NCBI RefSeq assembly: GCF_009914755.1
Contig: NC_060932.1
From: the human T2T-CHM13v2.0 reference genome, Homo sapiens
Strand: one strand, 5' to 3'
Length of the DNA: 64,000 nucleotides
Below, in pieces: positions 17,794 through 49,940 of the stretch (the first letter of the stretch is position 1; every line of letters starts with the position of its first letter). The position numbers and the translations under genes are program-made. Under the pieces are notes generated by a model that searched no databases, had not been told where the DNA came from, and saw nothing but the letters and a program-made list of their open reading frames with translations.

Positions 17794-18543
17794 AACCTGG
17801 CACAGTGGCTCACGCCTATAGCCCCAGCACTCTGGGACTCAGGCAGGAGGATCACTTGAGCCCTGGAGTTCTAGACCAGCCAGGGCAACATAGTGAGACT
17901 CCATCTCCCTAAAAAATTTAAAACATTAGCTAGGTGTGGTGGTGCGTACCTACAGTCCAAGCTACTCAGGAGGCTGAGGCGGGAGGATCACTTGAGCCCA
18001 GGAAGGTTGAGGCTGCAGAGAGCTGTGATCACACCACTGCATTTCAGCCTGGGAAACAGAGTCCCTGTTTAAAAAAAATAATAATAATAAATAAATAAAA
18101 GTGGCTCATGCCTGTAATCCTAGCACTTTGGGAGACCAAGGTAAGAGGATCACTTAAGCCCAAGAGTTCAAGACTGGCCTGGGTGACATAGCAAAACCTC
18201 GTCTCAATAAAGTGTAAGAATATATAAAAAAACAAAACAGGCTAGGCCTGTAGCTCACATCTGTAATTACAGCACTTGGCGAGGCTGAGGTGGGCGGATG
18301 GCTTGAGCCCAGAAGTTCGAAACCAGCCTGGGCAACATACGGTGAAACCCCATCTCTACAAAAAATACAAAAATTAGATGGGCGTGGTGGTGCACACCTG
18401 TAGTCCCAGCTACCTGGGAGGCTGAGGTGGGAGAATCAGCTGAGCCCAGGGAGGTCATGGCTGCAGTAAGTTGTGATAGTGCTGTGGCACTCCAGCCTGG
18501 GTGACAGAGTGAGACCCCATCTTAAAAAAAAAAAAAAAAAAAA
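17794..18543 (+). mobile_element. Head-to-tail cluster of AluJ-type elements (17794-18100, 18101-18237, 18240-18543)
   Basis: Consecutive Alu consensus matches, each with an A-rich tail. Confidence 0.92.
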
Positions 18544-22924: not shown

Positions 22925-23110
22925 AGCAACAATGATAAGATGACAGCATCTTCCAGTATCTCCCACAGCCAGGCACTGTTCTAAGCACACCTGGGACCCT
23001 CTTAGGGTTGGTTTGCGAATGCAATCACTTTACACACAAAGAATCAGAGTGTGGCACAGAAGGGCTCCCGAATTCGCCTGCATGACACAGCCAGTGACTG
23101 TCAGTGCTGG
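22925..23110. mobile_element. MIR SINE remnant
   Basis: GCCAGGCACTGTTCTAAGCAC ... GACACAGCCAGTGA MIR-like motifs. Confidence 0.55.
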
Positions 23111-23463
23111 CGACCCTGCCCTTTGCCTCGTTGTTCACTGTGGCCTGGCAGGGACAGCGGGAGAGGTGAGCCCCGGCCGAGAGCCAGTACTTATCAGTGC
23201 CAATTCTGCCCCAGATGCTGAGCTACCACTTTGCCAAAACTGTAATTCAACGTCAACATCCGAAGACCACTCCTCCCCAAACCTGGCTGAAAACAGGAGA
23301 CGAAAACCACCATCAGGGCAGGCTGAAGGGAGAGGAGACAAAGACTCCAGTGCCCGGGGCTCTCCAGGACGCACCATCCTCTGCCTCCAGAGGATCAGAG
23401 CCACGCCCAGTCCGCTAGCACTCCGCTCAGCGTTCACTGCGCACAGACGGGGAGGAGACTTAC

Positions 23464-23704
23464 CAATCTGCAACAGTATTGGTGTGACCAGAGCGGTTTC
23501 CATGGCGTAACAGAACTCCCTGCCAAACATCACCGCCCCGTGCATCACCCACAGGCGCATGGGGATTCGGTCTATGGACCCCTCGCTGATGGTCTCGCAG
23601 TTCTCGGCCTCTGCGCCTCCGGCTTTCTGCGGGTCCGGCAGGGGCACGGATAACTCTTGAACTTGCATAGATTCCGGGTCGGCATTCTGCGGAGCCATTT
23701 TCAT
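23464..23704 (-). CDS. SLC45A4: First coding exon portion of solute carrier family 45 member 4 (MFS-type transporter), codons 1-80 plus 1 nt
   Basis: Translation MKMAPQNADPESMQVQELSVPLPDPQKAGGAEAENCETISEGSIDRIPMRLWVMHGAVMFGREFCYAMETALVTPILLQI(G) is the recognisable SLC45A4 N-terminus, with the SLC45 TM1 motif GREFCYAME. ATG at 23704; second in-frame ATG at 23698 in strong context (AAAATGG). In-frame TAA lies 8 codons upstream. Ends at phase-1 donor ATTG|GTAAGT; the ORF-track extension (KSPPRL...) is intron read-through. Confidence 0.97.
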
Positions 23705-23742
23705 TACCACCAAAAATATATGTATTTATCTATATATTCTAT

Positions 23743-23928
23743 CTATATAAATAATGCTTTCATATATCTGTAATGATAAATTAAGACGTCTTCTCTTTCT
23801 GCTTCTGCTGTGTTCCTCGGGCAGGTAACACTTACATTCCTCTTTGCACAAGTGGCTATCTCACAACTTCTCACAACGGTATGAGACATGCAGCAACACA
23901 GAACGATTTTTGGTTGGATTTTAAACAT
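23743..23928 (-). promoter_or_regulatory. uORF-C, 61 aa, Cys-rich, ending 38 nt before the main ATG
   Basis: ORF track 23743..23928 starts at a true ATG and lies wholly within the exonic 5' UTR, out of frame with the CDS. Confidence 0.55.
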
Positions 23929-23941
23929 ATGGCTTGCTGGT

Positions 23942-24088
23942 TTACTGTGAATTAGAGTTAAAAATCCATAATTGCCATTCAGTTAATACCAGTTTCATCA
24001 TTATTACTGAAGAGGTGCTGAAGTGATTTTTCTTGCTACAGAGAGGTGGGAAGGTGATACAAACAGGTGGTCCGCTGGTAATCCCCAT
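23942..24088 (-). promoter_or_regulatory. uORF-A, 48 aa (MGITSGPPVCITFPPLCSKKNHFSTSSVIMMKLVLTEWQLWIFNSNSQ*)
   Basis: Hand translation of the exon 5' UTR. ATG 24088, internal ATG ATG at 24001/23998, TAA 23944-23942. Translation unproven. Confidence 0.55.
23958..23978 (-). promoter_or_regulatory. uORF-B, hexapeptide MAIMDF*
   Basis: ATG GCA ATT ATG GAT TTT TAA; the inner ATG has A at -3 and G at +4. Confidence 0.5.
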
Positions 24089-24573
24089 CGAGTGACTGGA
24101 TGATCTGCAAAAGAGGAAAACAACCCGGCCAGAGAGTCAGGGGACGGCCACCAGATGGCCCTGTGGACCGCCGCCCGACCCCCGAGCAAGCCGTGTGCCC
24201 CGAGGGCCCGACCCAAGATCACACAGCTCTCTGCCACTCACTCTGGGTACGTCTGTGCAAATAACCAAACCTACTTTCTAGAAAAACATTTTCTCATACG
24301 AAAGTGAATCCTGGGGAAGGACAAAGGTGGGGCAATCAAGGAAAGCAGGATCAAAGAACAGACAGAGAAAAACGCTGGAAATATTCACTCTTTGGCCAGT
24401 AACAATATCGTCCACCCTGTGTACCACAGCACGTAACTATTCCAGCAGGCTGGAGGCAGCTGGCGACACCCTTTGTGGCTGCAGATATCATGAAAGGGAA
24501 GTAAGGAGGTGAAGGGAAAAGTGGGGGAGGTAGGCAAAAGAGAATCAAAAGGGAAAACTTTTGTTTAAAAAAG

Positions 24574-24854
24574 TTTAATTTGTTAGTGACAAGGTCTCGC
24601 TCTGTTGCCCAGGCTGGAGTGCGGTCACACGACCATGGCTCTCTGCAGCCTCAAACTCCTGGAATCAAGTGATCTCCCACCTCATCCTCCCGAGTAGCTG
24701 CGACTACAGGCATGCACCACTACACCCAGCTAATTTTTCTAGGGTCCCCATTACATTGACCTGGCTGGTATCCAACTCCTGGGCTCAAGCGATCTACCCT
24801 GCCTCGGCCTCCCAAAGCACTAGGATTTACAAGTGTGAGCCACCGTGCCCAGCC
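24574..24854 (-). mobile_element. AluJ
   Basis: Diverged antisense Alu. Confidence 0.92.
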
Positions 24855-34480: not shown

Positions 34481-36074
34481 GTTGTCTGAGCGAGAATGGA
34501 CAAAAAAAAGAATATAACCAAATTAACAAGTCTACCAAACCATCACCAAAATATGCATAGCTGCCAACTTAAAGATGGATTGTATTTCCAAAGTTTATGG
34601 ACACATGTTTGGATGTGATGGTCCATTTCCCGAGAGACAACAGTGGACACCTCGAGGCCCTCTGGTCCTCCTCACCCACAGCCCTTGCTGGGACTGGAAC
34701 AAGGGCCCATGTGGTGCATATTTCCTGAACACGAAGACTCTGAGGCAGTTTGAAATCCTTCCCTTCACGGCCTCCCCCAGTCACTTCATCTCTAGGGCCT
34801 CACAAGAAATGAAAGGAAAGCAGCTCTGAGAAGAGAAGGGAGGAGTGTGCAGGGAGGGGCTGGGTGCCAGCGCGGGGCGTGTTCTCACACTGCGCGGGGG
34901 CAATCAGATACCATAAAACCAGTCCAACGCCCAGCAAACTACAGCCGTGAGGTCACTTTCTTAGAGCAAGCAAATTGTTTTCTGTAAGGAAACTATTTTA
35001 TATAAGCACGAGAGCATTATCTGAAAAAAGGAAAATGATTCTTCTCTAGTACACAGCTGAAAACTCCCTACTGAGGCATGACGTCACACTGAACCCATTT
35101 AAGGGAGGTCACGCTCCTCCTTCCCCAGCACAGGCAATCCTGTACCCCTGAGAGCTGCTGTCGCCTCAGCTGCTTAAAATGCGGAGAAGCTCAAAAGTTA
35201 AGCTGTGACCTGTTCTAGTATCTCATATTCAAAAGAACAGTGAAACTTTTCGGGCAGATTTTCCCCAGCATGGAAAAGCAAGCTTCCCTTTGGAATCTGT
35301 TCCAGCGACTGTCGGGGCATTCGGTGACAACAATTTTGTTATGATTCGCAGATGCACTCAGACAAGCGAAACTACAATTGTTCCAATCAACAACTTCCTC
35401 TATTGTCCTGTTTCTAATTTAAGGGTAACTGATGCCAAAACACATGACTTCCTACAATTTGCTGAGTGGAAAAGCTGGCTGTAAACTTAAATTTCACCAA
35501 AAAGGTAACTGGAGAGTTGCTGCTGACACACACCTCAAGCTTGGGTGAAACTTTCAGATCTACAGCACAGTCCCAGCGTTCAACAGCGACAGGAGAATTC
35601 CGTGAGCCATGCTTCCTGGGAAGCGGTCTAGCGAGTCCGGACAACACGCGTCCGCACGGTGACCACAAACGTGTGCTGCCCCTTTCACAGCCCCTACACA
35701 CGAAGCGCATGTACACGCACGCATGGGCCTGACACCATGGGCTGCAGACACCGCTTGTGGGCGGCACATGCTGATGAGGGCCGGCTCATGAGAACGGCTG
35801 TGTGTTTTCTGCACCCACCACCCAGAAACAGGCATGAGTAGGGGCACCCACAGTCAGACAAACCCACCACCACCATCAGCCTCGGACGGCCCCGTTCAAT
35901 CTTTACCAATGCAGTTCCCCCAGTCACGGCCGGCACGTGTCTTCCTGCCTCTCCAGATGGCCACGGAGAGGAACACTAACAGCAGCATTGGCAATTCTGC
36001 GTCTAAGGCTATTTCCTGAAAAGCATGTGGGAAATCCCACTGACTTCCAGCATGAAACCAGTGTGTGTCAAGGG

Positions 36075-38090
36075 AAGAAGACGACAAGCCACAAACGGGG
36101 TAAAAGTATTCGCAAAAGACATATCTGATAAAAGACTGGCATCCATAATATACAAAGAGTCCTTAAAACTCAACGAAAAGAAAATGAGCTCTTCTACAAG
36201 TTCCTCCCCACATGTATTCAGTGCATGCCTGGCTGGGCAGGAAGTGTGGGGCAAGCAGTGTGTGCTGGAAGGGCGGAAATTTCCAAAACAGATCTAACAA
36301 GAGGGCCCAGATGTTGAAGTGCCTTATTCCCACAAATGTCCGCCATCACTCTACCATTAAGATACTGGAAATGAGGAAATGAAGTATTAATTTTCTAACA
36401 ATTTGTGGTACCCTGGTCTGGCAAGCTGTCTTGAGCTATACTGGACTCAGAGTAGGCACATAGTCAAGCAACACGACACAGCAAGGGAGCCCCAGGACAG
36501 CGGTGGGCAGGTCCCTGAACTGCGGGGGCTGGCAGGACGGGGCAGGTGACCTGCCTGTGAACGGCCAAATCTGTGTGCGCATATAGCAAGTGCTGCATTC
36601 ACCACAAGCCAGGAGACTTCCGTGACACTTCCACTGCCTTCCTTGGACTCTGGCCTTCCCTTGGCCTCAGCAGCTTCACTGCTGTCCTTCAGGAATGATA
36701 CCGGGGCAGCAGCTCTGGGAAGCCGGCAGACCACCTGCTGCCGTGTCCCGTGGGGCCTGCGTGGCTACACAGTGCAATAGTCCAGGCTCCTGCACTGGAG
36801 TGGAGACGCTGAGGGATGGAGGCAGGCTCACCAGCGAGCGTACGGCTGTGCACATGCGTGCCTGCAGAGTTCACAGAAGCCCTGTGCGGGCAAGAATGTT
36901 GTGACTACTTGATGACGCCGGACAGTGCCAGGGAATTGCATTTTTGAGGCAAGGCAAGGCTTTACACTGTGTGAGATGGGTTCTTATTACAGAAAGTAGG
37001 ATGCACATGATGTGTTGGATTTTGAGGCTTAAAGAGTAGCGTCTGCTCAGTTTCAAAGCAAAGAGCTGGAAGAACAAGAGCCAATAAATGATCTTTTGCT
37101 ATATGGGGGAAAAGATGGCAAAAAGTCTGAAGACACCTCACCAAAGATGATACACAGACAGCAAATGAGCATATGGAAAGATACTCCACACTCGAGGTCC
37201 TCAAGGGGTTGTAGCTGTGGTGCCACCACACACCTATGAGAATGGCCAAAGCTTAGGGCACGGACAACACCAAAAGCAGGTGAGGATGTGGGGCAGCAGG
37301 AACGCTCGTTCACGGTTGGCAGAAATGTAAAATGCAGCAACCACTTCGAAAGACGGTTTGCCCATTTTCACAAAACCAGACATACTTTCAACCATGCCAC
37401 CCAGCAACCAAGTTCCTTGGTATTTACCAAACAGAGCTGAGAACTTATGTCCACACAAAAACCTGTGCTCAGATGTGAGAGCCGCTTTATTCGTCATTGC
37501 CAAAACTTGGAAGCAACCAAGACGTCCTTGTGTAGGTGACTGAATAAACCGTGGAACATCCAGATGATGGAATGTCATTCACCGCTAAACGGAAATGAGC
37601 TCTGACGCCATGCACGAAAAGATATGCGGGCACTTTAAATGAGTATTTCTAAGTGAAAGAAGCTACTCTGAAACGGCTACCAACTGCGTGATTCCAACTA
37701 GACGACTTTCTGGAAGAGGCAAAATCAAGCACACAGTAAAAGAAGCAGCGGTGACCAGGGCCTGGGGAAGAAGAGAGGCTGAGGAGGGTGTCAGGGCAGT
37801 GGAACTACTCTGTATGGCACTCTAATGGCAGACGCATGTCACTATGCATTTGCCAACCTACTGGAGCTACAGCACCCAGAGTGGAGACCCTGACGTGACC
37901 TCCGCACTGGGGTGACAGAGACGTGCCACTGCAGGCTCATCCACCGTAATCAATGTCCCACTCTGGCCGGCGACACAGACACTGGGGGAGGCTGGGAGTG
38001 GGGGCAGGGGCACACGGGAAATCTGTTATCTTCCTCTCAATTTTGTTGTGAACCTAAAACTGCTCTAGAAAGTAGTTTGTTGATTTTCAA
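36075..38090 (+). mobile_element. Old L1M (MB/MC-like) 3' region in pieces (36075-36190, 37080-38090)
   Basis: GACATATCTGATAAAAGACTGGCATCCATAATATACAAAG; GACACCTCACCAAAGATGATACACAG; GCCAAAACTTGGAAGCAACCAAGACGTCC; TTTTGTTGTGAACCTAAAACTGCTCT. Confidence 0.8.
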
Positions 38091-38892
38091 TGTTGTGTCC
38101 TTGTATTTACATAAATAAATAAGGCAATCAAAAACTCCTGATAATCCCTGGTTGTCCAGTGTTAGGAAGAAACCAAAACTCTTCATGAGAAAGGAATTAA
38201 GGGGCATCCATGCTGACTGCCGCGTACTTGGGGAAGCTTTCTGTGCCACCTGCTTACACCTGAACAAAGTGTCCTATCGTGGAGGCGCCCATCTCCGGGT
38301 GTGCTATGCATCACTTGGAAAAACCCAGCTTGGCTGCCTCTGATCATACAACGAGCCTCTAGTCCCAGACACATGGGCTAAAGAAATACAAAGTTCACAC
38401 CAGTTTCAACGAGGCATGTGACATCCTGGCATCCTCCAAACACTCAGCGCCTCACGTGGATCAGTGTGGAGGGGCTTCCCTAAACTGCAGGTTCTGGGGC
38501 TCCACCCCAGACCCACTGGATCAGAGACCAAGAGTCTGCACTGCAGCCACTCCTGAGTCATACGCTGTATAGGGAGCGCCACGAGCTCCACCTCACCCGA
38601 CAGCTCCAGGCTGCGCTGTCACCCTGGCGGGGCAGCTACTACGTCCCCGCTTTCACCCTCAAGAGTGTCCCAGTTAGAACACCCCAGCACTTCAGAGATG
38701 AATGATCTAAAGCTTAATTGTGCCTTAAGTCTTCTGATAACCGTCTTTGTGCATTTTGTGCCACAAGTCAGGGCACTTCAGAAACCGAAAAGGACGCACA
38801 GCAGACCACACATCCATCCTTCTTCTCTGCTCTCCTTTCAATTAGAGCTTGCTGTGAATCTGCAGCGGCAGAGGGGAGTGGGCAGAGGCCAG

Positions 38893-38918
38893 GTGTATGT
38901 GTGTCGATGTCTGCCTAT

Positions 38919-38949
<31 letters not shown>

Positions 38950-39268
38950 ATGTCTGCCTGTGTCGCGTGTGTGTATCGATGTCTGCCTATGTGGGTGTGT
39001 GTGTGGGTGTGTCTGTGTGTCAATGTCTGCCTATGTGTCTGTGTGTGTGGGTGTGTCTGTGTATCAATGTCTGCCTATGTGTCTGTGCGGGGGGTGTGTG
39101 GGGGTGTCTGTCTGCCTGCCTCTGTATGTCTGTGTGGGCATGTGTATGTGTGTCTGTGTCTGTGTGTGTCTGTCTCTGCATCTCTGGATGGATCTATATG
39201 TGTCTGTATGTCTGTGTCTATCTCTGCATGTCTGTGTCTGTACATCTGTGCATGTGTATGTGTTGTGT
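38893..39268. repeat. Complex (TG)n-rich simple repeat
   Basis: TG runs with recurring ATGTCTGCCTATGT motif. Confidence 0.95.
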
Positions 39269-39705
39269 TTGTAAAATACCCTAAGTTTGAAGAAACTGAA
39301 TCAAGGAAAATCTGGAAGGGCCCCCAGGAATGAGCGGACACCGTATGGCCACAGTGTGTCTATGGCTGGCATCCCCACAGCAGAGGCAGCCCAGTGTGCA
39401 TGCCCCCAGCATGTCTTTCCCCGCACTCCTCTGCTGACCATACGGGGCGGCCTGGCCCAAGCCCCAGACAGTGCCCTGAAGTCTCCTCCCGCCTCCTCCA
39501 GACCCTTGCCCTGCCCTTCTCACACCTGCTTGCAGACCTTGCCTCCTGCCCCACAGACCCTGAGGGCACAGCGCAGTTGGACTACCTCTGGGTCCAGCAC
39601 ACACGCAGCGCAGGCACCCAGATGGTCTTTAAAAGAAACGAATCCCTAAGTGCTAAAGGCAGAGGGGCCAGTCCAACCCATAATTACTCCATCAATAAAG
39701 AAAAC

Positions 39706-40332
<627 letters not shown>

Positions 40333-41249
40333 CTAGTCAGTCACGTGCTTGTGTCTCCCCAGCCACGGCAAGATCCCTGAGCCCAGGGGCAGGCAGAGGG
40401 CATGGCCTGGCGAGACAGGGACTCAGAAGGACCTATAAATGAGCAAATGAAGCGCCTTGGGTGCTAACGCCAAGCCAGAGTAAAGGACCTACAATGGCAC
40501 TATTCCCACAAAGGCTCTGACTGACATCGACAATGCTGTTCTCATAGTTACTGATGAGCCAGAACGCTTGCCCGCCTCCGGCGCCCAGCACACGGGGCTA
40601 ACCCCACACATTATGGCTAGGAAATCCACTGGAAACTGAGCTTACTGGAAGAGCTCCCAGAGACTTCCTGGAGAAGATGACCTTCCTGCCGGTGAAGTCA
40701 CAGGCCAACTGTAGGATGCTGGTGGCAAGGCCCCTGCACCACAGGCTAGAGCATCACCTCACAGCTTCTGGGCTCTCCTGGCTGGCACCACACTCAATTC
40801 TGGAAGCCATTTTTCCATCTGCAAAGGCAAACCTCAGACTTGCCAACAGCTGTGGGATCCTACCAGGAACTCCCAGGGCCTGTGGGGCAGGGCACATGGC
40901 TGGCGACTGGCTCAGATGCCCAAGAACCACGTCATTCAGAAAGGCCACACACAGCTGGACAACGGGGTGCCAAGCCCCTACCTCGAGAGGCTGTGTGGGT
41001 GGATCAAATGGGAGCAGGCAGCAGGCATCAGGGTAATCCCCCTCCTGATCCCCTTCCTGACCCCATTTCAGAAGGGGCCAGGGAAGCTCAGCTCTTCTCC
41101 ACCAGACACCGTTCTATCCCCCAAACAACTGGCAGGGGAGAGCCACTCTCACAGATATGATCATATGTCAGGGGAAGTCCGCAGTTCACCAACACTCTTC
41201 CTGACACCACCCCAGCACCAACACAGCACAGGACAGGCACTGAGTGTAT

Positions 41250-41560
41250 ATACACAAGTGTGCACACAACACACACACCACGTGTGCATGCAACACACAC
41301 CTGTGTACACACACACACACGCACTCACACACGTGCATGCAACACACACCTGCGTACACATACACGCGCTCACACGTGTGCAACACACACCTGCATTCAC
41401 ACATGCACTCACACGTGTGCAACACACCTGCGTACACACATGCACCCATACACGTGTGCATGCAACACACACCTGCGTACACACATGCATTCACACACGT
41501 GTGCAACACACACCTGCGCACACACATCCATTCCCACACATGTGCACGCAACACACAGGC
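41250..41560. repeat. CA-rich degenerate minisatellite
   Basis: Recurring CACACGTGTGCA(TGCA)ACACACACCTGCGTACACACATGC units. Confidence 0.92.
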
Positions 41561-48040: not shown

Positions 48041-49940
48041 AAGGAGAGACAGGCCTCTGCCCCCTAGCCACCAGCAGCTGAGTGCTGACCACAGCCCCCA
48101 CGGGCAGCACAGGCAAGCAAGTGGAGGAAATAGAGGAACTGTGAGTGAGCAGAAAAATGCAATGCAATCAGCTGACCAGAGAGGAAGCTGGGCTCCTTGC
48201 TAACGTCTCAACAAGGCACAGACGCACCCGCAAGGGAGTGGGCAGCACTGCAGGATGCAGCAAGGGCTGCTCAGACCTGCTGGGGGCATCCTTTGCCCCG
48301 GGCTCTGTCCCTACTGCCCCCAGGCACATTTCACTGCCAGGCTGCTGGGGGCCAGGGCTCCAGCCTCCAGGGCAGCACACCTCAGCCTGCTCTGTCCCCT
48401 TCAAGGCCAGACAAGCAAAGCCCCAGCCCCCACCTTGGCCCCCAGCCTGTGGGCACAGTTTCTCTCCACAGGCTTGGCTGGGCCTGGCTTCCACACCTTC
48501 CAGCTCCAGCCTTCACCCCAAGACCCCCACCTCTGTGACGGCTCCCACATTCTGCGGGACCCACCTCCAGGCTCTGCTGGTTCTCCTCTCACCTCCTTCC
48601 CCCACGCAGCCTGGAAAGGAAGGGCCGATGCTCGTGGGAGCCCCTGTGGCCTCGGGGCCCTGGCTCTATCCCCACCGTGCCAGGCGGCCTTTCCTTGCCT
48701 CCCATCCGCCTACTCAGAAGCCCAGGATGGCTGCCAGGTGAAGGAAACGGCTCTGGAGGGGAGCCAGGACAAGTCTGGCTTTACTGAAAAGTAACATCCG
48801 CAGGACAGACTCATAGCTGACTTTGTTTGAAGGAGCAAGTCGGCTAAGAGTGTCATTTTCCTTTACACCTGCAATCCCACGGACCACATCTCAATGCCCT
48901 CTACCCCCATTCTTACGTCTGTCACTTGCTCTTTCACATACGTTGCAAGTCTTTGATGAGGGAGGCCAGCTTTCCCTCTGGAAGGAGATGCCTTCAGTTG
49001 TAAACCGACAATTCATAAAAAGTTGGGGGCTTCGAGTACACAATTCCGCATTCCCGAGAAGCCTGCCAATCATGCAGTGGAAACACCTGACCTGGTGCAT
49101 CGCGCACCCCTCCCTGGCCAGGCTGCCCTCCCTGGCACACGCCCCGCGCTGGCCGGCAACAAACAAAACCCACACGGACAAAGGAGTCTTTACAAGAACA
49201 GCCAAAACAATTCCATCTGCGAACAAAAACTAACGGCAGAATTAAAGGCTGCAAGTCCAAACACAATCTGGCTATTGTAAACAGTGCCTCAGTTTATCAA
49301 TGTAACAATAACTCTTTCAAAGATTAATAAAGTTCCCCCCAAACACTCAGCAATCTAGCATTGTTAAGATACTTTGGAGGATAAATATTAGCTTGGGACT
49401 CGCCTACATGAGAAGTGAAAGCTGCCAAGACAGCAGTTCTAAAGCAAGAACCAGCGGCAGCAGCGGCGGCCACAGGGCAGCGAGGCACGGGCCCAGGCAC
49501 TGCTTCCAGCCTTGCCGCACATCAGTTCGACTCCCCAGGCACCTCCTTGCACCCAGCACCACGCTGGCCCCTCACCCCGTGTCACACTCCACATGCAGCC
49601 CCCTGCGAGCTGAGCAGCAGGACTCACCTTGGGCACTGTGAGTGAGACAGAGCAAGGGCACCAATCCTCTGGGCCCCACGTGCCCCCTGCCCACCCTGTC
49701 CTGGGGTCACTGGCTCGTGAGGGCGGGACTGCGACTCTGTCTCCTGGATCCCTGATGGCCAGGCGCCTGGCAACAGATAAGCCACCCACAGCAAACAGGA
49801 ATAGGTGGAAAATGGACTTAACTAAAAGGAGAGGTTTTAAGATGATTGTTGGAAATAAAAGGGAACAAAGGAGCATTCAAGCTTAGATTTGATTCCAACT
49901 TACTTTCTTGAAAGACATTTAAGTAACCTGGGTAACCAAA

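What the first reader, a model, noticed from the sequence alone, without database searches (positions are those of the whole stretch)
23705..24104. uORF-packed 5' leader of SLC45A4: candidate polyamine-sensing translational switch
Seen: the 400-nt exonic leader has 9 upstream AUGs (24088, 24001, 23998, 23978, 23969, 23928, 23889, 23837, 23763). They form a 48-aa uORF, a nested hexapeptide, a 61-aa uORF and a start-stop. Established: polyamine-pathway mRNAs are classically feedback-regulated through uORFs (AMD1 MAGDIS, AZIN1 upstream coding region with PPW/eIF5A stalling, yeast polyamine transporter HOL1 uORF MLLLPS*). SLC45A4 has, as I recall, recently been reported to be a polyamine/putrescine transporter. 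Inference: this leader could couple transporter synthesis to polyamine level, a mammalian counterpart of HOL1 control that I have not seen described. Caveats: the leader is AT-rich, which raises chance AUG frequency, and the upstream 5' exon is outside the window.
Basis: partly seen in the sequence, partly recalled or inferred. Interest (0 to 1): 0.8.

Follow-up and report, generated by a model that had tools for sequence, protein, structure and literature searches.

The report
SLC45A4 exon-2 leader: catalogued uORFs, circRNA
The upstream start codons in front of the human polyamine transporter gene SLC45A4 are real and two of the small reading frames are already listed as translated, but nothing in the sequence marks them as polyamine sensors, and the whole exon is also a known circular RNA.

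Summary
The minus-strand leader 24104-23705 has nine AUGs at the stated places, forming four uORFs (48 aa, hexapeptide, 61 aa, AUG-stop). The count is not above chance: 9 against 10.1 +/- 2.2 in 5000 dinucleotide shuffles. The packing into two long frames is unusual (P about 0.004, chosen post hoc). Both long uORFs are already in the GENCODE Ribo-seq ORF catalogue. The 48-aa one is classed as conserved beyond primates and the 61-aa one as primate-young and de novo. Both have strongly negative PhyloCSF scores and no mass-spectrometry support. None of the four uORFs ends in the stall motifs that define known polyamine-sensing uORFs (PPW-stop, PS-stop). No held paper links SLC45A4 translation to polyamines. 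The two papers pairing SLC45A4 with uORF misprint SLC35A4. Best reading: an ordinary, probably constitutive uORF brake on the linear mRNA, in an exon that also circularises. A polyamine switch remains possible (about 0.12) but untested.

The parts
23464..24104 (-). SLC45A4 exon 2 (641 nt). This is the entire body of the single-exon circular RNA circSLC45A4 / hsa_circ_0001829.
   Evidence: Hub annotation gives the exon as 23464-24104. Acceptor AG and donor GTAAGT are present. Papers give 641 bp, single exon. The published reverse primer pairs with the first 17 nt of the exon plus its last 3 nt, and the forward primer lies at 23565-23584.
23705..24104 (-). AT-rich 5' leader part of exon 2 with nine AUGs. 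It makes up 62% of the circle.
   Evidence: GC is 37%, against 58% for the coding part of the exon and 50-57% for the flanking introns. Single copy in the genome.
23942..24088 (-). uORF1: 48 codons plus TAA, in frame with the main ORF. The AUG context is U at -3 and G at +4. Pro-Pro dipeptides sit at codons 7-8 and 14-15.
   Evidence: Identical peptide listed as Ribo-seq ORF c8riboseqorf113: 'conserved', PhyloCSF -54.4 (primates) and -543.4 (mammals), 0 MS studies.
23958..23978 (-). uORF2: six codons plus TAA, nested inside uORF1 in another frame. The inner AUG at 23969 has a strong context (A at -3, G at +4).
   Evidence: Too short (under 16 aa) to be eligible for the catalogue.
23743..23928 (-). 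uORF3: 61 codons plus TAG. The AUG context is weak (C at -3, U at +4). It starts 13 nt after the uORF1 stop and ends 38 nt before the main AUG.
   Evidence: Identical peptide listed as Ribo-seq ORF c8norep148: 'primatomorpha - young', de novo, PhyloCSF -44.0 and -898.2, 0 MS studies.
23832..23837 (-). AUG-UAA start-stop, inside uORF3 in another frame.
23464..23704 (-). Coding part of exon 2. The main AUG is at 23704 (G at -3, A at +4). A second in-frame AUG at 23698 has a stronger context (A at -3, G at +4).
   Evidence: The 80 residues equal residues 1-80 of PDB chains 9ghz_A and 9giu_A, named SLC45A4.
18366..18434 (.). Downstream-intron arm of an inverted repeat that pairs across the exon with 24673-24741 (86% complementary).
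   Evidence: pair I16. Eleven of the 25 listed inverted pairs straddle the exon.
24673..24741 (.). Upstream-intron arm of the same inverted repeat.
   Evidence: pair I16.

Best explanation
The 400 nt are the untranslated 5' part of SLC45A4 exon 2, an AT-rich stretch that plays two roles. (1) In the linear mRNA it follows a GC-rich, AUG-free first exon and puts four uORFs in front of the main AUG. Ribosomes translate at least the two long ones. Those uORFs are 48 and 61 codons long, and the last one stops only 38 nt before the main AUG, so reinitiation should be poor. The main AUG would then be reached mostly by leaky scanning past uAUGs in weak or middling context. The leader therefore most likely acts as a constitutive brake that keeps transporter synthesis low. 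It does not look like a metabolite sensor that depends on the peptide sequence. (2) The same exon, cut out by back-splicing from 23464 to 24104, is the whole of the conserved circular RNA circSLC45A4. Each back-splicing event removes the start-codon exon from that pre-mRNA. Sequence conservation in the leader may serve the circle rather than the uORFs. Shown: the anatomy, the catalogue listing as translated, and the identity with the circRNA. Inferred: repression, poor reinitiation, and competition between circular and linear products.
For: Anatomy and AUG contexts. The exon-1 region has no ATG. uORF1 and uORF3 are listed with identical peptides in the 7,264-ORF GENCODE Ribo-seq catalogue as tabulated in PMC10032668 Table S1, which was compiled from seven Ribo-seq studies. 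Both have negative PhyloCSF scores and 0 MS studies, so a regulatory role is more likely than a microprotein role. The AUG count is at chance. The polyamine stall motifs are absent. circRNA identity rests on the 641-bp single-exon description with hg19 coordinates. It also rests on a published divergent primer pair whose reverse primer spans the 23464->24104 junction. The window-to-hg38 offset is the same for both uORFs, and a single hg19-to-hg38 offset fits both exon ends. Inverted repeats flank the exon. Reviews describe circSLC45A4 as conserved between human and mouse, with a function in the neural progenitor pool.
Against: No reporter or translation-efficiency measurement for this leader was found, so repression is inferred from general scanning rules. 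Two uORFs of at least 48 aa in 400 AT-rich nt are rare in shuffles (18 of 5000). uORF1 is also classed as conserved in non-primate mammals, as are only 10.4% of catalogued ORFs against 1.0% of controls. Both points hint at selection on uORF1 that a purely incidental brake does not need. The footprints behind the catalogue entries cannot be assigned to the linear or the circular RNA. I could not run a cross-species alignment. The primary circRNA paper (Suenkel 2020) was not held. One of the two papers giving the circRNA's length and coordinates is retracted for image overlap.
Confidence: 0.6

Rival explanations
1. One reading: one of the uORFs (most plausibly the conserved uORF1) senses polyamines. 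High polyamine would slow eIF5A-dependent elongation or termination on the uORF. Scanning subunits would queue, uORF initiation would rise and transporter synthesis would fall, as for yeast HOL1 and mammalian AZIN1.
For: SLC45A4 transports polyamines. uORF1 is translated, is classed as conserved beyond primates and has a suboptimal start (U at -3) that allows leaky scanning. It contains two Pro-Pro dipeptides, a class of site that depends on eIF5A (recalled, not tested). The long-uORF arrangement is rarer than chance. uORFs occur in most polyamine-pathway mRNAs (abstract of PMC2811004, seen in the listing).
Against: No uORF ends in PPW-stop or PS-stop. The ends are NSQ, MDF, LFI and M. The Pro-Pro sites lie 33 and 40 codons before the stop and are not followed by W. 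PhyloCSF is strongly negative. uORF3 is primate-specific. The AUG count is at chance. No held paper reports such regulation. Conservation can equally be credited to the circRNA.
Confidence: 0.12
2. The sequence is shaped mainly by its role inside circSLC45A4, through RNA-protein or RNA-RNA contacts or cap-independent translation of the circle. The uORFs would be by-products of AT-rich composition.
For: The exon is the circRNA. Reviews describe it as conserved in sequence and function between human and mouse. The leader is 62% of the circle and differs in composition from its surroundings (37% GC against 50-58%). On the circle the main AUG opens a 113-codon frame that crosses the junction and ends at 24006. 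The AUG count is at chance.
Against: The mechanism of the circRNA is given as unknown. The leader shows no exceptional fold (z -0.69, 27 of 100 shuffles fold as well) and no Rfam match. The miRNA-sponge claims come from one retracted paper and one unreplicated one. This reading does not explain why stop codons are scarce in two frames.
Confidence: 0.2
3. The uORFs encode functional microproteins of 48 and 61 aa.
For: Both are catalogued as translated, and uORF1 shows amino-acid similarity in non-primate mammals.
Against: PhyloCSF is -54 and -543 for uORF1 and -44 and -898 for uORF3. Both have 0 MS studies. Neither has a Pfam family at E <= 1. uORF3 arose de novo in primates.
Confidence: 0.03
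4. The multi-uORF leader makes SLC45A4 translation respond to eIF2-alpha phosphorylation (integrated stress response), as in ATF4 or SLC35A4.
For: Several translated uORFs precede an inefficiently placed main AUG. Two papers literally say this of 'SLC45A4'.
Against: Those two statements cite Andreev 2015, whose main text has 0 mentions of SLC45A4 and 16 of SLC35A4, so they are misprints. uORF1 is long (48 codons), not a short reinitiation-permissive uORF. No uORF overlaps the main AUG.
Confidence: 0.05

Closest known systems
GENCODE Phase I Ribo-seq ORFs c8riboseqorf113 and c8norep148 (SLC45A4 uORFs)
   Same: The peptides are identical to uORF1 and uORF3, and the coordinates map with one constant offset.
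   Different: None: these are the same objects. The catalogue assigns no function. The hexapeptide and the start-stop fall below its 16-aa limit.
circSLC45A4 / hsa_circ_0001829
   Same: Same 641-nt exon and same back-splice junction.
   Different: The literature treats it as a non-coding circle. Its overlap with the uORF-bearing leader of the linear mRNA was not discussed in the passages I saw.
Yeast HOL1 uORF (polyamine importer autoregulation)
   Same: A polyamine transporter mRNA with a translated uORF whose start can be bypassed by leaky scanning.
   Different: HOL1 has one short uORF ending in a conserved PS-stop. Here there are four uORFs, two of them long, and none ends in PS. Polyamine response is untested.
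AZIN1 (and ODC1) upstream conserved coding region
   Same: A polyamine-pathway mRNA with a conserved upstream frame containing Pro-Pro.
   Different: The AZIN1 element ends in a conserved PPW. Here the Pro-Pro dipeptides are followed by V and L, lie far from the stop, and the start is an AUG.
SLC35A4 leader (11 uAUGs, one conserved 102-codon uORF)
   Same: An SLC mRNA with many uAUGs, most of them not conserved, and one conserved long uORF.
   Different: The SLC35A4 uORF shows protein-coding evolution and stress-resistant translation. The SLC45A4 uORFs have negative PhyloCSF scores and no stress data.

Membership tests
AZIN1/ODC1-type polyamine-sensing upstream coding region | Conserved C-terminal PPW immediately before the stop | tested here: not met
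   The uORFs end in NSQ, MDF, LFI and M. The Pro-Pro dipeptides at uORF1 codons 7-8 and 14-15 are followed by V and L. Motif as stated in the review passage.
AZIN1/ODC1-type polyamine-sensing upstream coding region | Weak start that is usually bypassed by leaky scanning | tested here: inconclusive
   The uORF1 AUG has U at -3 and G at +4. The uORF3 AUG has C at -3 and U at +4. These are suboptimal AUGs, not near-cognate starts.
HOL1-type polyamine transporter uORF | Conserved PS-stop at the uORF end | tested here: not met
   No uORF ends in PS. Motif.
HOL1-type polyamine transporter uORF | Main-ORF translation falls as polyamines rise, dependent on the uORF and on eIF5A | not testable with these tools
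   No data found. In the DFMO Ribo-seq paper, 12 of 17 supplementary files were searched, and SLC45A4 appeared only in tables of expression by MYCN status.
AMD1-type hexapeptide uORF | Six-codon uORF with the specific peptide quoted in the finding (MAGDIS) | tested here: not met
   The six-codon uORF2 reads MAIMDF. The peptide itself is from the finding and my recall, not from a call.
Catalogued translated uORF (GENCODE Ribo-seq ORF) | AUG-initiated ORF of at least 16 aa called as translated in at least one of seven Ribo-seq studies | tested here: met
   uORF1 and uORF3 are listed with identical peptides. Criteria. I infer from the ID prefixes 'riboseqorf' and 'norep' that they mean replicated and non-replicated; no passage I saw states this.
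Single-exon circular RNA circSLC45A4 / hsa_circ_0001829 | Back-splice joining the exon's 3' end to its own 5' end; 641 nt | tested here: met
   Exon length is 641 nt. The published reverse primer is the complement of the exon's last 3 nt plus its first 17 nt, and the forward primer lies downstream of it in linear order. RNase R resistance and Sanger sequencing of the junction are reported only in a retracted paper.
Single-exon circular RNA circSLC45A4 / hsa_circ_0001829 | Complementary repeats in both flanking introns | tested here: met
   Eleven of the 25 listed inverted pairs have one arm on each side of the exon, for example 18366-18434 with 24673-24741 at 86%. This is common in Alu-rich human introns, so the support is weak.
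Start-stop element | AUG directly followed by a stop codon in a 5' leader | tested here: met
   ATGTAA at 23837-23832. Whether ribosomes occupy it is unknown.

The most novel reading that the evidence does not exclude
uORF1, the translated 48-codon frame classed as conserved beyond primates, is a new kind of polyamine-responsive element. It would lack the PPW or PS-stop signature and use its internal Pro-Pro sites or its termination context. It would couple synthesis of a mammalian plasma-membrane polyamine transporter to cellular polyamine and eIF5A status. Back-splicing of the same exon would act as a second, independent valve on transporter output.
Probability: 0.1. Interest if true: 0.7.

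Novelty: already known. Interest (0 to 1): 0.3.

Why it matters
Feedback control of mammalian polyamine uptake is described as poorly understood (abstract start of bioRxiv 10.64898/2026.07.01.735194, listing). SLC45A4 has only recently been named a polyamine transporter and pain gene. A translational sensor on its mRNA would be a useful finding, but this work gives no positive evidence for one. The work does establish three practical points for anyone testing the idea. First, the two long uORFs are already catalogued as translated, and only uORF1 is old enough to be a conserved regulator. Second, the exon is also an abundant circular RNA. RNA-seq, qPCR, siRNA and Ribo-seq signals over this exon therefore mix two molecules, and reporters must be built from the linear leader. 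Third, the only printed 'SLC45A4 uORF' statements are misprints for SLC35A4.

Tried and rejected
- **Rfam:** a scan of 23000-24600 on both strands at E <= 1 gave 0 matches.
- **Leader fold:** MFE -85.1 kcal/mol, z -0.69, and 27 of 100 shuffles fold as well, so there is no exceptional structure.
- **Pfam on uORF1 and uORF3:** 0 families at E <= 1.
- **Repeat origin:** the leader is single copy in the window's own genome (1 match). Only two tiny tandem repeats lie in the region.
- **SLC45A4 plus uORF in print:** 2 papers, both citing Andreev 2015, which names SLC35A4 and never SLC45A4. Rejected as misprints.
- **SLC45A4 plus 'upstream open reading':** 1 paper, the same misprint. SLC45A4 plus 'Ribo-seq': 0 papers.
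- **The two transporter papers:** the Nature paper has 0 occurrences of UTR, isoform, upstream, feedback or DFMO. The Nat Commun paper uses DFMO only for metabolite tracing and has 0 occurrences of UTR or isoform.
- **DFMO Ribo-seq study (PMC12527938):** 12 of 17 supplementary files were searched. SLC45A4 appears only in tables of expression against MYCN status, with no translation-efficiency value. Five files were not searched.
- **Sandmann supplement searched by ORF id:** no further sheet mentions the two ORFs.
- **Junction motif in the main texts of the two hsa_circ_0001829 papers:** not found. It was found in a supplementary primer table instead.
- **Suenkel 2020 (Cell Rep):** not held, so its claims are second-hand from reviews.
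- **Cross-species alignment of the leader:** not possible, because the DNA collections on hand are prokaryotic, viral, plasmid or the window's own genome. I relied on the published classification.
- **Large protein-database searches with the uORF peptides:** not run, because unannotated uORFs would not be in them.

Full report
**1. The observation**

On the minus strand, the exon begins at 24104 directly after a polypyrimidine tract and AG. It ends at 23464 before GTAAGT. The annotated start codon is at 23704. Its 80 encoded residues equal residues 1-80 of the PDB chains 9ghz_A and 9giu_A, named SLC45A4.

They fall into four stop-defined uORFs:
- **uORF1**, 24088-23942: 48 codons, with 24001 and 23998 nested in frame. 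It is in frame with the main ORF but closed.
- **uORF2**, 23978-23958: six codons, with 23969 nested. It lies inside uORF1 in another frame.
- **uORF3**, 23928-23743: 61 codons, with 23889 and 23763 nested in frame.
- **AUG-UAA start-stop**, 23837-23832.

The ORF listing gives the same two long frames.

**2. Is it more than chance?**

The count is not. In 5000 dinucleotide-preserving shuffles the leader has 10.1 +/- 2.2 ATGs, and 77% of shuffles have at least nine. Sixty-five windows of similar GC on the same strand average 8.5. The leader is 37% GC, against 58% for the coding part of the exon and 50-57% for the flanking introns.

The arrangement is less expected:

| Measure | Observed | Shuffles | P |
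|---|---|---|---|
| Distinct uORFs | 4 | 7.7 | 0.03 (low side) |
| Stop trinucleotides | 21 | 28.1 | 0.02 (low side) |
| Longest uORF | 61 aa | 32 aa | 0.04 |
| Two uORFs of at least 48 aa | yes | 18 of 5000 | 0.0036 |

I chose these statistics after seeing the data, so they are hints, not proof of selection.

**3. The upstream exon**

The window's own genome is held. From the annotated TSS (window 77759) the sense strand is 84% GC and has no ATG in 600 nt. It has a single consensus donor at +194. If that donor is the exon-1 boundary (my inference), the selected mRNA has a leader of about 593 nt, and its first AUG is 24088. Alternative first exons inside the window carry further ATGs: 7 in 545 nt and 73 in 5380 nt.

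**4. What is known about the uORFs**

Table S1 of Sandmann et al. 2023 (PMC10032668; I read the supplement rows, the header and passages of the methods) lists both long uORFs with peptides identical to mine:

| ORF id | uORF | Conservation class | Origin | MS studies | PhyloCSF primates / mammals |
|---|---|---|---|---|---|
| c8riboseqorf113 | uORF1 | conserved | not calculated | 0 | -54.37 / -543.40 |

- 'Conserved' means an amino-acid conservation score of at least 8 in non-primate mammals. That class holds 10.4% of catalogued ORFs against 1.0% of controls.
- The catalogue pools seven Ribo-seq studies. It holds 3,085 ORFs found in more than one study and 4,179 found in one, and it excludes ORFs under 16 aa.
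- I infer from the ID prefixes that uORF1 is replicated and uORF3 is not. No passage I saw states this.

Ribosome footprints exist. One uORF is old and the other is primate-specific. Neither evolves like a protein.

**5. The polyamine hypothesis**

[quoted passage not shown] It is also reported as a peroxisomal putrescine transporter (PMC12634670, passages).

A review passage (PMC11550727) gives the defining features of the known sensors:
- the AZIN1 uORF has a highly conserved C-terminal PPW;
- the HOL1 uORF has a conserved PS-stop;
- both work through leaky scanning and a ribosome queue.

Here the uORFs end in NSQ, MDF, LFI and M. uORF1 has two Pro-Pro dipeptides, but they are followed by V and L and lie 33 and 40 codons before the stop. 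The six-codon uORF2 does not match the AMD1 peptide quoted in the finding.

The start contexts of uORF1 (U at -3, G at +4) and uORF3 (C at -3, U at +4) would allow leaky scanning. That is compatible with a sensor but not specific to one.

I found no data on polyamine, DFMO or eIF5A effects on SLC45A4 translation. In one DFMO Ribo-seq study, 12 of 17 supplementary files mention SLC45A4 only in tables of expression by MYCN status.

Two papers say that 'SLC45A4' shifts between uORF and main ORF under arsenite. They cite Andreev 2015, whose text has 0 mentions of SLC45A4 and 16 of SLC35A4. These are misprints.

**6.

The exon is a circular RNA. Two papers describe hsa_circ_0001829 as a single-exon, 641-bp circle from SLC45A4 at hg19 chr8:142264087-142264728. 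One of them is retracted for image overlap. The exon here is 641 nt.

The supplementary primer table of PMC12888668 gives a forward primer that matches 23565-23584 on the minus strand. Its reverse primer has 17 letters that match the plus strand at 24088-24104, and its last three letters complement the exon's final TTG. It therefore spans the 23464->24104 back-splice. The pair is divergent on linear DNA.

One constant offset maps the window to the hg38 coordinates of both uORFs. A second constant offset maps both exon ends to the hg19 circle.

Reviews citing Suenkel 2020, which is not held, describe circSLC45A4 as conserved between human and mouse. They also say it is needed to maintain neural progenitors, by an unknown mechanism.

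Eleven of the 25 listed inverted repeats straddle the exon. This fits intron-pairing-driven circularisation but is common in Alu-rich introns.

The circle's length is 641 = 3 x 213 + 2. On the circle the main AUG opens a 113-codon frame that crosses the junction and ends at 24006.

**7. How it most likely works**

I commit, at 0.6, to an ordinary uORF brake on the linear mRNA in an exon that also circularises.
- Ribosomes that start at uORF1 or uORF3 translate 48 or 61 codons.
- uORF3 ends 38 nt before the main AUG, so reinitiation should be rare (established scanning rules; an inference here).
- The main AUG is then served mainly by subunits that leak past nine AUGs.
- Back-splicing removes the start-codon exon from a given pre-mRNA, which would be a second, independent limit on transporter mRNA (inference).

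The leader has no exceptional fold (z -0.69), no Rfam match and no Pfam family in its peptides.

The polyamine switch stays open at about 0.12. The circRNA-centred reading stands at about 0.2 and is not exclusive of the brake.

**8. Novelty and verdict**

The uORFs and the circRNA are already catalogued. The proposed polyamine coupling is not in the main text of any held paper, but it also has no positive evidence. Supplements of bioRxiv preprints, five files of PMC12527938 and the primary circRNA paper were not seen and could bear on this.

Interest is 0.3: a reasonable, testable idea resting on an ordinary sequence feature.

Noticed in passing
window 23995-24006, minus strand: The run TAATAATGATGA gives four consecutive stop codons in one frame and overlaps the two adjacent AUGs at 24001 and 23998 of another frame. 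The junction-crossing 113-codon frame of the circular RNA ends at the first of these stops.
   Followed up: partly
window 23830-23837, minus strand: The start-stop ATGTAA is part of ATGTAAGT, whose GTAAGT is a perfect 5' splice-site core inside the exon. Use of this site would remove the main AUG from the mRNA. No annotated transcript in the hub table uses it.
   Followed up: no
window 23698-23704, minus strand: The annotated AUG at 23704 has G at -3 and A at +4. The in-frame AUG two codons later (23698) has the stronger context, A at -3 and G at +4, so some initiation may occur there.
   Followed up: no
window 23705-23778, minus strand: The last 74 nt before the main AUG form a long AU-rich hairpin in both the MFE and the centroid structure. 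The stretch is 16-30% GC and includes a 13-nt tandem repeat at 23719-23749. The leader as a whole folds no better than shuffles.
   Followed up: partly
window 24042-24104, plus strand: By the hub annotation, exon 1 of the antisense lncRNA SLC45A4-AS1 (24042-24246) overlaps the first 63 nt of exon 2. That includes uAUG1 and the exon's 3' splice site.
   Followed up: no
L002 (G000:C8:142428800-142429900), window about 77160-77759, minus strand: The region downstream of the annotated TSS is 84% GC with no ATG in 600 nt and one consensus donor at +194. This contrasts sharply with the 37% GC, AUG-rich exon-2 leader.
   Followed up: partly
window 48942-49486 and 35907-41286, minus strand: Alternative first exons of other SLC45A4 transcripts carry 7 ATGs in 545 nt and 73 ATGs in 5380 nt. 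Those isoforms would have even heavier uAUG loads ahead of exon 2.
   Followed up: no
literature, not a window feature: Two papers (PMC5758873 and bioRxiv 10.1101/106922) write SLC45A4 where their cited source, Andreev 2015, describes SLC35A4.
   Followed up: yes
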